Program-made: the position numbers and the translations under genes
Notes under the pieces: generated by a model
The model's database searches: none
Seen by the model: only the letters and a program-made list of their open reading frames with translations
What the model was told of the DNA's origin: nothing
From: a virus
Lineage: Duplodnaviria; Caudoviricetes
DNA: 64,000 bases
Reading direction: 5' to 3' (one strand)
Virus record (IMG/VR): IMGVR_UViG_3300045837_000213
Coordinates: 1-64,000 of that record
Shown here: positions 46,479 through 46,575 of the stretch, one piece after another
Position numbering within the stretch: the stretch's first letter is position 1
Layout of the letters: every line of letters begins with the position of its first letter

Positions 46479-46488
46479 AGTTCCACTC

Positions 46489-46575
46489 GGCTTGGCTGCG
46501 GCTTGGCTGGTCATGGCAGGCTTCGGCTCGGTAGGGCAAGGCGATGGCAGGTTTGGGCTTGGCTAGGCGAGGAAC
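46489..46575 (+). ncRNA. GGY-NN pentamer array 3
   Basis: ggctt ggctgc ggctt ggctg gtcat ggcag gcttc ggctc ggtag ggcaa ggcgat ggcag gtttg ggctt ggcta ggcga ggaac. Confidence 0.82.

What the first reader, a model, noticed from the sequence alone, without database searches (positions are those of the whole stretch)
46484..46575. Array 3 decodes to the tape measure gene (50168-50208), where the resident uses rare TTA/TTG Leu codons
Seen: NN string (tc) tt tg tt tg at ag tc tc ag aa ga ag tg. The + strand at 50168-50208 reads (tc) tt tg tt gc at aa tc tc aa aa gc aa tg. That is 8 of 13 exact, or 9 of 14 with the leading non-GGY unit; two units are 6 nt long. The guide is compatible with QLSLLDDLIQKQND and the resident encodes QLALLDDLIAKQND. 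Three mismatches are CTN versus TTR leucine swaps, in a gene that elsewhere mostly uses CTC/CTG. This is a third independent in-frame match, so joint chance is very low.
Basis: partly seen in the sequence, partly recalled or inferred. Interest (0 to 1): 0.92.

Follow-up and report, generated by a model that had tools for sequence, protein, structure and literature searches.

The report
VIPR guide RNA targeting sibling tape-measure genes
The five-base repeat tract is a guide RNA of a phage-borne, CRISPR-like VIPR system (a kind first described in 2026); it spells a conserved site in the tape-measure gene of related phages, while the carrier phage's own copy is silently recoded at exactly the letters the guide reads.

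Summary
Observation confirmed and interpretation supported, but the kind of system is already published.

- **The system.** The tract 46484-46575 is one of four GGY-NN arrays around a 207-aa Vipr protein and two HNH genes. This is a VIPR system (bioRxiv 10.64898/2026.04.26.720920).
- **The match.** Array 3 matches the resident tape-measure gene at 50168-50209 in 9 of 14 units (22/28 letters). That is the single best site in the 93-kb contig.
- **The relatives.** The only two known relatives of this gene lack the cassette in the DNA held and match far better: 26/28 and 25/28. These exceed the published 80% target threshold; the resident copy (78.6%) falls just below it.
- **The recoding.** Three of the five resident mismatches are CTN-to-TTR leucine swaps. 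Across the footprints of arrays 1 and 3, all 7 conserved Leu/Ser/Arg codons are in the alternative codon family, against 18% elsewhere in the tail genes (p = 5e-6).
- **The other arrays.** Arrays 1, 2 and 4 behave the same way against the tail-tip, vipr and NlpC/P60 genes.
- **Most likely reading.** The guide directs exclusion, or possibly homing, against sibling phages, and the carrier is immune through synonymous recoding.

This scan has met VIPR loci before in at least 61 other genomes, including HNH-armed cassettes beside tape-measure genes.

The parts
46484..46555 (+). Guide part of vrRNA 3: 14 units. The first is non-GGY, and two carry one extra base (46499 and 46545).
   Evidence: Sequence. 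Matches the tape-measure site at 22/28 letters in the resident, 26/28 in L014 and 25/28 in L015. No significant RNA structure (z = -0.97).
46556..46577 (+). 3' tail of array 3: four GG-led units (tt ta ga ac) that pair with no target and hold the ribosome-binding site of the next gene.
   Evidence: 0 of 4 units match in the resident, L014 or L015. The equivalent ends of arrays in 12 other loci are conserved and overlap the HNH start.
50168..50209 (-). Resident, mismatched copy of the array 3 target, inside the tape-measure gene (QLALLDDLIAKQND).
   Evidence: 9/14 units and 22/28 letters; unique best site. Codons compared with relatives.
49132..53130 (-). Tape-measure gene (1332 aa) of the carrier phage.
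   Evidence: ORF. Two relatives of 1348-1360 aa sit in tail modules. It lies upstream of the DUF2460, BR0599/baseplate hub, NlpC/P60 and Phage-tail_3 genes. The role is assigned from position and length; there is no Pfam hit.
45726..46349 (+). vipr gene: 207-aa RAMP-like protein that should bind one GGY per subunit.
   Evidence: Profile hit to PDB 36pp_D, 'SUSP1 Vipr protein', E = 3.9e-8. About 30% identity over 94-97% of its length to genes of 117 SUSP1-family phages. Matches phrog_4652. More than 1300 homologues.
46578..46874 (+). HNH nuclease gene (accessory 'vap') directly behind array 3.
   Evidence: Matches HNH PHROG families and gives a weak Pfam HNH hit. A homologous MPKKRQP... gene follows the array in the other loci.
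45285..45605 (+). Second, unrelated small HNH nuclease gene upstream of array 1.
   Evidence: Pfam HNH E = 4.7e-9, HNH_5 E = 2.8e-8.
45625..45704 (+). Array 1: 16 strict 5-nt units, of which 12 are guide and 4 are tail.
   Evidence: Scores 22/24 against the tail-tip gene of L015 and 18/24 against the resident site 42864-42905.
46353..46418 (+). Array 2: 13 units with one extra base.
   Evidence: The first 10 units score 19/20 on the G-loop codons of vipr genes in L001, L002 and L004, against 16/20 on the resident's own vipr at 46287-46316.
46884..46953 (+). Array 4: 14 strict units, of which 11 are guide and 3 are tail. It runs into the terminator hairpin at 46953-46977.
   Evidence: Scores 21/22 on the NlpC/P60 gene of L015 and 14/22 on the resident site 47351-47383.
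42864..42905 (-). Resident, recoded copy of the array 1 target in the tail-tip gene.
   Evidence: Resident codons are TTA, AGC and AGG where L015 has CTC, TCC and CGC for the same Leu, Ser and Arg.
47351..47383 (-). Resident, diverged copy of the array 4 target in the NlpC/P60 gene.
   Evidence: The resident has FELHDYEYHIV where L015 has FETFDYFYDLI; 5 of 11 units match.
43125..47068 (+). 3.9-kb lower-GC cassette lying between the NlpC/P60 stop and the tail-tip start. These two genes abut in L015.
   Evidence: GC is 0.54-0.59 against about 0.67 in the flanks. L015 gene map and its junction sequence. Promoter-like site at 44312-44340.

Best explanation
Array 3 is the gene for a VIPR guide RNA (vrRNA).

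**Assembly (inferred from the published mechanism).** The RNA is cut out of the + strand operon transcript. It is coated by Vipr subunits, each holding one GGY and presenting the next two bases.

**Recognition (shown here by sequence).** Read with one target base skipped per unit, the 14 presented dinucleotides spell the first two letters of 14 consecutive codons. These codons form a conserved tape-measure site, Q-L-A/S-L-L-D-D-L-I-Q-K-Q-N-D.

**Natural target.** The target is that site in related phages that do not carry the cassette.

**Effect on the target (inferred).** The filament binds double-stranded DNA there. Either it blocks transcription of the tail operon, or the adjacent HNH nuclease cuts. 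Either way a co-infecting or co-resident sibling phage is disadvantaged.

**Self-immunity (shown by sequence, selection inferred).** The carrier's own copy mismatches 5 of the 14 units. Three mismatches are silent Leu CTN-to-TTR swaps, one is Gln to Ala, and one is shared with the relatives.

**Not shown.** Transcription, processing, binding and cutting were not tested.
For: **1. It is a VIPR system.**
- Vipr homology.
- Four GGY-NN arrays on the coding strand.
- The same gene-array-HNH order occurs in 12 loci from five phyla, with GGY conserved and NN variable.
- The published code and mechanism were read.

**2. The relatives match better than the resident.**
- Guide against relatives: 26/28 in L014 and 25/28 in L015. 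The next best site in those loci scores 17, and 0 of 200 shuffles reach the observed scores.
- Guide against resident: 22/28.
- L014 differs from the resident at five read letters, and all five lie at positions where the resident mismatches the guide. Four of the five become the guide's letter.

**3. The frame and boundaries fit.**
- The skipped base is the wobble position in all three genes.
- The match starts at the 5' edge of the array and stops where the unmatched tail begins.

**4. The resident is recoded.**
- At conserved Leu/Ser/Arg columns, resident against L015, codon-family swaps are 88/489 (18%) over five tail genes. In the array 1 and array 3 footprints they are 7/7. Fisher p = 5e-6. 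The resident is always in the minority family.
- Third-position GC in the footprint is near normal at 11/14 (counted from the codons), so this is not general AT enrichment.

**5. Independent replication.** Arrays 1, 2 and 4 show the same 'relative above resident' pattern.

**6. Background.** Of 13 sites in 2.9 million viral contigs that match the first nine units exactly, none exceeds 22/28.
Against: - **No expression evidence.** The only sequencing runs that hold this DNA are soil DNA assemblies, so nothing bears on whether the RNA is made.
- **Few relatives.** Only two relatives of the gene exist in the databases searched. The direction of the codon changes cannot be rooted, and the resident is the outlier of the three overall (63-65% against 76% amino-acid identity).
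- **Irregular units.** Two units are 6 nt long, whereas the cryo-EM model has 5 nt per subunit. Tolerance of an extra base is inferred only from the match continuing in register (5/5 units beyond the breaks in L014).
- **Borderline self-match.** The resident copy matches 78.6%, only just under the published 80% working threshold. Mismatch tolerance for this HNH type is unknown.
- **One exception.** One of the four resident TTR codons matches the guide.
- **One shared mismatch.** One guide unit (TC, Ser) fits none of the three genes.
- **Weak structure model.** The Vipr structure model was of low confidence (pLDDT 48.8).
Confidence: 0.8

Rival explanations
1. Self-regulation. The partial match to the resident gene is the functional one. 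The guide binds the phage's own tape-measure gene weakly to damp tail-operon expression, for example during lysogeny.
For: - The resident site is the best match in the whole contig.
- It scores 78.6%, just under an arbitrary threshold.
- Published VIPR action is transcriptional silencing on either strand.
Against: - The relatives fit clearly better, at 89-93%.
- The resident differs by silent changes at read letters far more often than background. That is the opposite of what selection for pairing would give.
- The cassette encodes two HNH nucleases, so self-binding would be hazardous.
- The published surveys found no self-targets at or above 80%.
Confidence: 0.07
2. Drift, not selection. The guide does target this tape-measure family, but the resident's mismatches are ordinary divergence of an outlier lineage or a patch acquired by recombination. 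They were not selected as self-immunity.
For: - The resident is the most divergent of the three genes.
- Just upstream of the footprint (codons 930-968) is a resident-only stretch of low third-position GC.
- A run of four TTR codons somewhere in the gene is not rare by itself (p = 0.10).
Against: - Swaps are 7/7 in two independent footprints against an 18% background.
- The resident's own vipr gene shows the same kind of Ser and Arg family swaps under array 2.
- The footprint lies outside the strict low-GC3 patch, and its third positions are near normal.
- A phage that carries nuclease-linked guides against its own essential genes could hardly persist without such mismatches.
Confidence: 0.1
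3. Chance resemblance. The array is a VIPR guide, but its real target is elsewhere and the tape-measure hit is a coincidence of a common helical peptide motif.
For: - Nine-unit exact matches occur 13 times in viral contigs. All encode (D/E)ELIQKQK-like helices.
- With all 18 units scored, the resident hit alone is not significant.
Against: - Scores of 26/28 and 25/28 in the two homologues against 17 for the next best site; 0 of 200 shuffles reach them.
- None of the 13 motif hits exceeds 22/28.
- Three other arrays hit neighbouring genes of the same relative phage.
Confidence: 0.02

Closest known systems
Type II VIPR system of Escherichia phage SUSP1 (Vipr, Vap1 and vrRNAs; bioRxiv 10.64898/2026.04.26.720920, .720927 and 2026.10.15.759431; PDB 36pp)
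   Same: - Homologous Vipr protein.
- GGY-NN guide arrays flanking vipr on the same strand.
- The 1-nt-skip code aligned to codon wobble positions.
- Targets in competing mobile elements.
- Self-match lower than non-self match.
   Different: - Only about 30% protein identity.
- The accessory gene is an HNH nuclease, not a winged-helix DNA binder.
- The 3' tail is 3-4 degenerate GG-led units overlapping the next gene's start, rather than a roughly 40-nt pseudoknot.
- The targets are homologues of the carrier's own tail genes, not a satellite recombinase.
- Two guide units carry an extra base.
Nuclease-associated VIPR types III-V (the same preprint). Type III is the likely HNH type; this is inferred from the text and the legend of fig. 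S21, because the figure itself is not held.
   Same: - Vipr plus a predicted nuclease.
- Guides with at least 80% matches to viral sequences.
   Different: - Those types are described as enriched in host defence islands and read as host immunity.
- This cassette sits inside a phage tail operon and aims at sibling phages.
- Type membership was not tested by phylogeny here.
Class 1 CRISPR effector backbones (Cas7 filaments; Cas5-HNH Cascade, PMC11794572)
   Same: - RAMP protein oligomerising on a guide RNA with periodic base displacement.
- HNH as the effector nuclease.
   Different: - No repeat-spacer array and no cas1/cas2.
- Only two of every five guide bases pair.
- One target base in three is skipped.
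Free-standing homing endonuclease genes of phages (T4 seg/mob type marker exclusion; phage HNH homing, PMC12724721, seen only as a title and abstract in the search)
   Same: - A nuclease cassette present between two conserved genes in one phage and absent in a relative.
- Sites predicted to be attacked lie within about 300 bp on both sides of the empty site.
- The flanks next to the cassette are of distinct ancestry.
   Different: - Specificity here would come from guide RNAs, not from the protein.
- Cleavage and homing are not shown.

Membership tests
VIPR system | Vipr protein homologous to characterised Vipr (RAMP with a C-terminal glycine loop) | tested here: met
   Profile against PDB gives 36pp_D 'SUSP1 Vipr protein', E = 3.9e-8. 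tblastn finds 117 SUSP1-family phages at about 30% identity over 94-97% of the length. The G-loop GIADGRSVGFGRF is nearly invariant in the family.
VIPR system | RAMP fold (RRM core, thumb, G-loop) shown by structure | tested here: inconclusive
   The AlphaFold model from 20 close sequences has mean pLDDT 48.8.
VIPR system | Tandem GGY-NN (YNNGG) units, at least 4, in intergenic DNA flanking vipr on its strand | tested here: met
   Four arrays of 13-18 units.
VIPR system | GGY conserved and NN hypervariable among related loci | tested here: met
   12 loci from genome contigs carry arrays behind the vipr homologue, with different NN strings.
VIPR system | The 1-nt-skip code yields natural targets with at least 80% NN match, with the skip at the wobble position | tested here: met
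   Array 3 scores 93% (L014) and 89% (L015), in frame. Arrays 1, 2 and 4 score 92-95% over their guide parts.
VIPR system | No self-target at or above 80% on the source contig | tested here: met
   The best self hit of array 3 is 22/28 = 78.6%. This is borderline.
VIPR system | Adjacent accessory (vap) gene with a DNA-related function | tested here: met
   An HNH gene at 46578-46874 is conserved behind the array in the other loci.
VIPR system | Roughly 100-nt vrRNAs are expressed and co-purify with Vipr | not testable with these tools
   No RNA run is listed for this DNA.
VIPR system | Invariant structured 3' tail after the repeats | tested here: inconclusive
   The last 3-4 units never pair with targets and are similar between arrays. 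No fold stands out for array 3 (z = -0.97). No pseudoknot was tested.
VIPR type III (HNH vap) | Placement in the type III clade of the Vipr tree | not tested
   The reference sequences of the typed clades are not available here. Only the HNH association is seen.
CRISPR-Cas | Repeat-spacer array and adaptation genes (cas1/cas2) | tested here: not met
   No such repeats appear in the tandem or direct repeat output. None of the cassette ORFs scanned matches a cas1/cas2 family, and the only Cas hit is a weak Csm4 match, E = 0.028.
Free-standing homing endonuclease cassette | Cassette present or absent between the same two conserved genes in relatives | tested here: met
   The NlpC/P60 and tail-tip genes abut in L015 and are split by 3.9 kb in the window.
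Free-standing homing endonuclease cassette | Flanks next to the cassette have a distinct ancestry (co-conversion tracts) | tested here: inconclusive
   Third-position identity to L015 is 0.33-0.53 for the first 96 tail-tip codons against 0.50-0.83 beyond. It is 0.30-0.50 in NlpC codons 33-152 against 0.60-0.73 beyond. Both tracts end just past the array 1 and array 4 sites. This rests on one relative only.
Free-standing homing endonuclease cassette | Cleavage of the cassette-less allele and copying of the cassette | not testable with these tools
   Needs an experiment.

The most novel reading that the evidence does not exclude
The HNH-armed VIPR cassette is an RNA-guided homing or marker-exclusion element.

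**Where the guides point.** They aim at cassette-free sibling phages on both sides of the cassette's own insertion point and at one more distant site.
- Array 1: 219-260 bp to the left, in the tail-tip gene.
- Array 4: 283-315 bp to the right, in the NlpC/P60 gene.
- Array 3: 3.1 kb away, in the tape-measure gene.
- Array 2: rival vipr genes.

**Proposed mechanism.** Cutting followed by repair from the carrier genome would copy the cassette together with its recoded, immune flanks.

**What fits.**
- Silent swaps between the two codon families of Leu, Ser and Arg are the route by which the carrier stays immune. This is a loophole in the published claim that the wobble-skipping code cannot be escaped without changing the protein.
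- Flanks with saturated synonymous divergence and cassette-like low GC end just beyond the array 1 and array 4 sites.
Probability: 0.3. Interest if true: 0.85.

Novelty: new member of a known kind. Interest (0 to 1): 0.6.

Why it matters
VIPR was described only in 2026, and its nuclease-linked types are uncharacterised.

- **A natural HNH-type example with a full set of targets.** For all four guides the target can be named in related genes (tail genes of a relative phage for arrays 1, 3 and 4; vipr genes of other loci for array 2), and the carrier's own alleles can be compared letter by letter.
- **A loophole in the published escape argument.** The preprints argue that skipping the wobble base makes the code proof against synonymous escape. 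Here the carrier's own copies differ from the guide largely by silent Leu, Ser and Arg codon-family swaps. Synonymous escape therefore appears possible at six-fold degenerate codons, and in this phage it fits self-immunity.
- **Design of guides and targets.** This bears on how VIPR guides and targets should be chosen.
- **Where such cassettes sit.** The layout suggests that they may spread among sibling phages like homing endonucleases.
- **Guide architecture.** A one-base bulge between guide units seems not to shift the target register.

Tried and rejected
- **More tape-measure relatives.**
  - The search for related loci with the 200-aa segment found none in viral or metagenome contigs.
  - The search for related loci with the three-protein alignment found none in metagenome contigs.
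  - A search for shorter protein fragments found none.
  - tblastn against 50,697 phage records found nothing.
  - A codon-degenerate pattern for the site had 0 hits in viral contigs.
  - Relatives of the contig cannot be drawn because it is a virus record.
  - The records of L014 and L015 are not held whole, so a VIPR elsewhere on those contigs is not excluded.
- **Guide-based scan.** The first nine units searched against viral contigs gave 13 hits. All are at or below 22/28 and are helical-motif look-alikes, so they were not taken as targets.
- **Sequencing runs.** No RNA holder is listed. The only holders are the soil DNA assemblies that are probably the source. Laying contigs at 80% likeness gave only short spurious pieces. 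It showed no cassette-free variant and no alternative alleles.
- **Rfam.** No family match for any array. The best was a chance-level RsmZ hit on array 4.
- **Early ideas dropped once the Vipr hit appeared.** These were cos or terminase-binding repeats, a TRAP-like or CsrA-like RNA sponge, G-quadruplex tracts and iterons.
- **General AT-rich patch as the cause of the TTR codons.** Rejected, because the footprint lies outside the strict low-GC3 windows and its third positions are 11/14 GC (codons).
- **Partial self-matches as a general feature.** Tested on 12 other HNH-type loci. It mostly did not hold; only L002 array 2 (20/26) and L004 (21/32) stood out.

Full report
**What is there.**

The window carries a 3.9-kb block of lower GC (0.54-0.59 against about 0.67) at 43125-47068. 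It lies between the stop of an NlpC/P60 gene and the start of a Phage-tail_3 tail-tip gene, both on the minus strand.

Its + strand operon starts after a promoter-like site at 44312-44340 and ends in a strong hairpin at 46953-46977. In order it holds:
- small ORFs;
- an HNH gene (45285-45605);
- array 1;
- a 207-aa gene (45726-46349);
- arrays 2 and 3;
- a second HNH gene (46578-46874);
- array 4.

All four arrays are runs of five-base units with GG(C/T) fixed and two free bases, and all are on the coding strand.

**What kind of system it is.**

The 207-aa protein has no Pfam family. It belongs to phrog_4652 and to a family of more than 1300 highly conserved metagenomic proteins.

- A profile of the family hits one solved structure, 36pp chain D, named 'SUSP1 Vipr protein' (E = 3.9e-8).
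- tblastn finds about 30% identity over nearly the full length in 117 SUSP1-family coliphages.

Three 2026 preprints describe VIPR systems. Their main points are:
- Vipr subunits polymerise on a vrRNA made of GGY/NN units. They bury each GGY and present each NN.
- The NN pairs with double-stranded DNA while every third target base is skipped. In natural targets that skipped base is usually the codon wobble position.
- Natural targets were called at 80% or more NN match.
- No self-target reached that level.
- Nuclease-type accessory genes, including HNH, define types enriched in defence islands.

The same order (vipr homologue, GGY-NN array or arrays, MPKKRQP... HNH gene) recurs in 12 loci from Acidobacteriota, Armatimonadota, Bacillota, Cyanobacteriota and Parcubacteria. 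GGY is conserved and NN differs. The locus is therefore a VIPR system, probably the HNH (type III) kind.

**Check of the observation.**

- The agreement is 9 of 14 units and 22 of 28 letters.
- It is the only site in the window with 8 or more units.
- It is the best site in the whole 93-kb contig.
- Two of 1000 unit-order shuffles reach 9 units, and none reaches 22 letters.
- The skipped base is the wobble position of the 1332-aa minus-strand gene 49132-53130. From its position and size this is the tape-measure gene.

Four further units at the 3' end (46556-46575) match nothing. They overlap the ribosome-binding site of the HNH gene. I read them as the non-pairing tail, as in arrays 1 and 4.

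**The decisive comparison.**

Only two relatives of this tape-measure protein exist among 5.8 billion proteins. Their DNA is L014 and L015.

In L015 the tail module continues DUF2460, BR0599, NlpC/P60 and tail-tip with no cassette. No GGY-NN array occurs in either locus.

In coding sense the guide demands CA CT TC TT CT GA GA CT AT CA AA CA AA GA.

| Gene | Units matched | Letters matched | How it differs from the guide |
|---|---|---|---|
| Resident | 9/14 | 22/28 | units 2, 5 and 8 have TT (Leu TTG, TTG, TTA); unit 3 has GC; unit 10 has GC (Ala) |
| L014 | 12/14 | 26/28 | units 2 and 8 have CT and unit 10 has CA (Gln), all as the guide demands; only units 3 and 5 differ |
| L015 | 11/14 | 25/28 | units 3, 4 and 10 differ |

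- In both relatives this is by far the best site: the next best scores 17, and 0 of 200 shuffles reach the observed scores.
- L014 differs from the resident at five read letters, and all five lie at positions where the resident mismatches the guide. Four of the five turn into the guide's letter.
- The match holds its register across both 6-nt units: all five units outside the central block match in L014. An extra base between units therefore does not seem to shift the target frame.
- If only the strict central block of nine units counts, the scores are 16/18 for L014 and 13/18 for the resident.

**Is the resident copy recoded?**

TTR makes up 24 of 129 Leu codons in the gene. All four Leu codons in the footprint are TTR, and three of them mismatch the guide.

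I aligned five tail genes between the resident and L015. At columns where both have the same Leu, Ser or Arg, the codon family differs in 88 of 489 (18%). In the footprints of arrays 1 and 3 it differs in 7 of 7, always with the resident in the minority family (Fisher p = 5e-6).

- Under array 1 the resident has TTA, AGC and AGG where L015 has CTC, TCC and CGC.
- Under array 2 the resident's own vipr G-loop has AGC (Ser), GTT (Val) and AGG (Arg), where the guide and foreign vipr genes have TCN, ATN and CGN. The scores are 16/20 for the resident's own gene against 19/20 in L001, L002 and L004.
- Third-position GC in the array 3 footprint is 11/14, and the footprint lies outside the strict low-GC3 windows of the gene. 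The swaps are therefore first-letter changes, not general AT drift.

The preprints argue that the wobble-skipping code leaves only protein-changing escape. Here silent escape through six-fold degenerate codons is the main difference between self and target.

**The other arrays and the setting.**

It matches the NlpC/P60 gene of L015 at 21/22 letters (FETFDYFYDLI). The resident has FELHDYEYHIV there, at 14/22.
- Array 1 matches the tail-tip gene of L015 at 22/24 letters, against 18/24 in the resident.
- The resident sites of arrays 1 and 4 lie 219-260 bp and 283-315 bp from the two ends of the cassette.

Third-position identity to L015 falls close to the cassette:

| Region | Near the cassette | Beyond |
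|---|---|---|
| Tail-tip gene | 0.33-0.53 (first 96 codons) | 0.50-0.83 |
| NlpC/P60 gene | 0.30-0.50 (codons 33-152) | 0.60-0.73 |

Both divergent tracts end just past the guide sites. NlpC/P60 as a whole, and the first 46 tail-tip codons, have cassette-like low GC3. This is the pattern expected if the cassette moves by recombination together with immune flanks. It rests on one relative, and cutting has not been shown.

**How it most likely works.**

- **Shown by sequence:**
  - the system is VIPR;
  - the guide spells a conserved tape-measure site;
  - relatives fit at 89-93%;
  - the carrier fits at 79%, and its mismatches are mostly silent codon-family swaps.
- **Inferred from the published mechanism:** Vipr coats vrRNA 3 and binds the site in double-stranded DNA.
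- **Inferred from gene content:** one of the HNH proteins cuts, or the filament blocks the long tail operon. Sibling phages that lack the cassette are excluded or converted.
- **Open:**
  - expression and processing of the RNA;
  - mismatch tolerance;
  - the roles of the two HNH genes;
  - whether the outcome is exclusion or homing.

**Novelty.**

The code and the family are public, so the locus is a new member of a known kind. The scan itself has met VIPR loci in at least 61 other genomes. These include HNH-armed cassettes beside tape-measure genes and a lone guide next to a recoded target.

I did not find the following in the three preprints (term searches):
- codon-family recoding as self-immunity;
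- guides aimed at homologues of the carrier's own tail genes on both sides of the insertion point;
- in-register 6-nt units.

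Noticed in passing
It matches the NlpC/P60 gene of the cassette-free relative at 21/22 letters. The resident site scores only 14/22 and carries several amino-acid changes.
   Followed up: yes
window 42834-43124 and 47069-47452: The flanks next to the cassette are near saturation at synonymous sites against L015 (third-position identity 0.30-0.53, against 0.50-0.83 farther away). They also have cassette-like low GC3. Both tracts end just beyond the array 1 and array 4 target sites, which resembles co-conversion tracts.
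   Followed up: partly
window 53154-53250: About 14 tandem copies of a 7-nt unit (CATCACY on the minus strand) fill a non-coding spacer directly upstream of the tape-measure start codon. In L014 and L015 the upstream ORF runs into the tape-measure start, and no such repeat exists.
   Followed up: partly
window 48366-48437: An 11-nt repeat (TGGTATCAAAC, about 3.8 copies) followed by a related 14-nt repeat lies in the spacer between the DUF2460 and BR0599 genes. The L015 spacer at the same place is unrelated.
   Followed up: partly
window 43140-43185 and 47038-47047: AAAATGCCAG occurs at 43140 and, inverted, at 43176, forming a hairpin at the left edge of the cassette. A third copy lies at 47038 near the right edge. 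It may be a terminator, or a mark of the insertion boundaries.
   Followed up: partly
window 46488-46509: Array 3 begins with an exact 11-nt tandem duplication (CGGCTTGGCTG twice). This creates one of the 6-nt units and mirrors the repeated AA./CA. codon pattern (QKQN in L014) of the target. It hints that guides grow by duplication.
   Followed up: partly
L002:1677-1756 and L002:7142: In an Armatimonadota MAG, the second array behind the vipr homologue has a partial self-match of 20/26 letters 5.4 kb downstream. None of 100 shuffles reaches it.
   Followed up: no
window 46419-46488: The 70-nt spacer between arrays 2 and 3, together with array 2, folds better than shuffles (z = -2.9). I did not examine this further.
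   Followed up: no
window 57349-57518: A 24-nt, 18-nt and 6-nt periodic GC-rich repeat (about 7 copies of 24 nt) was reported by Tandem Repeats Finder upstream of the putative capsid gene.
   Followed up: no
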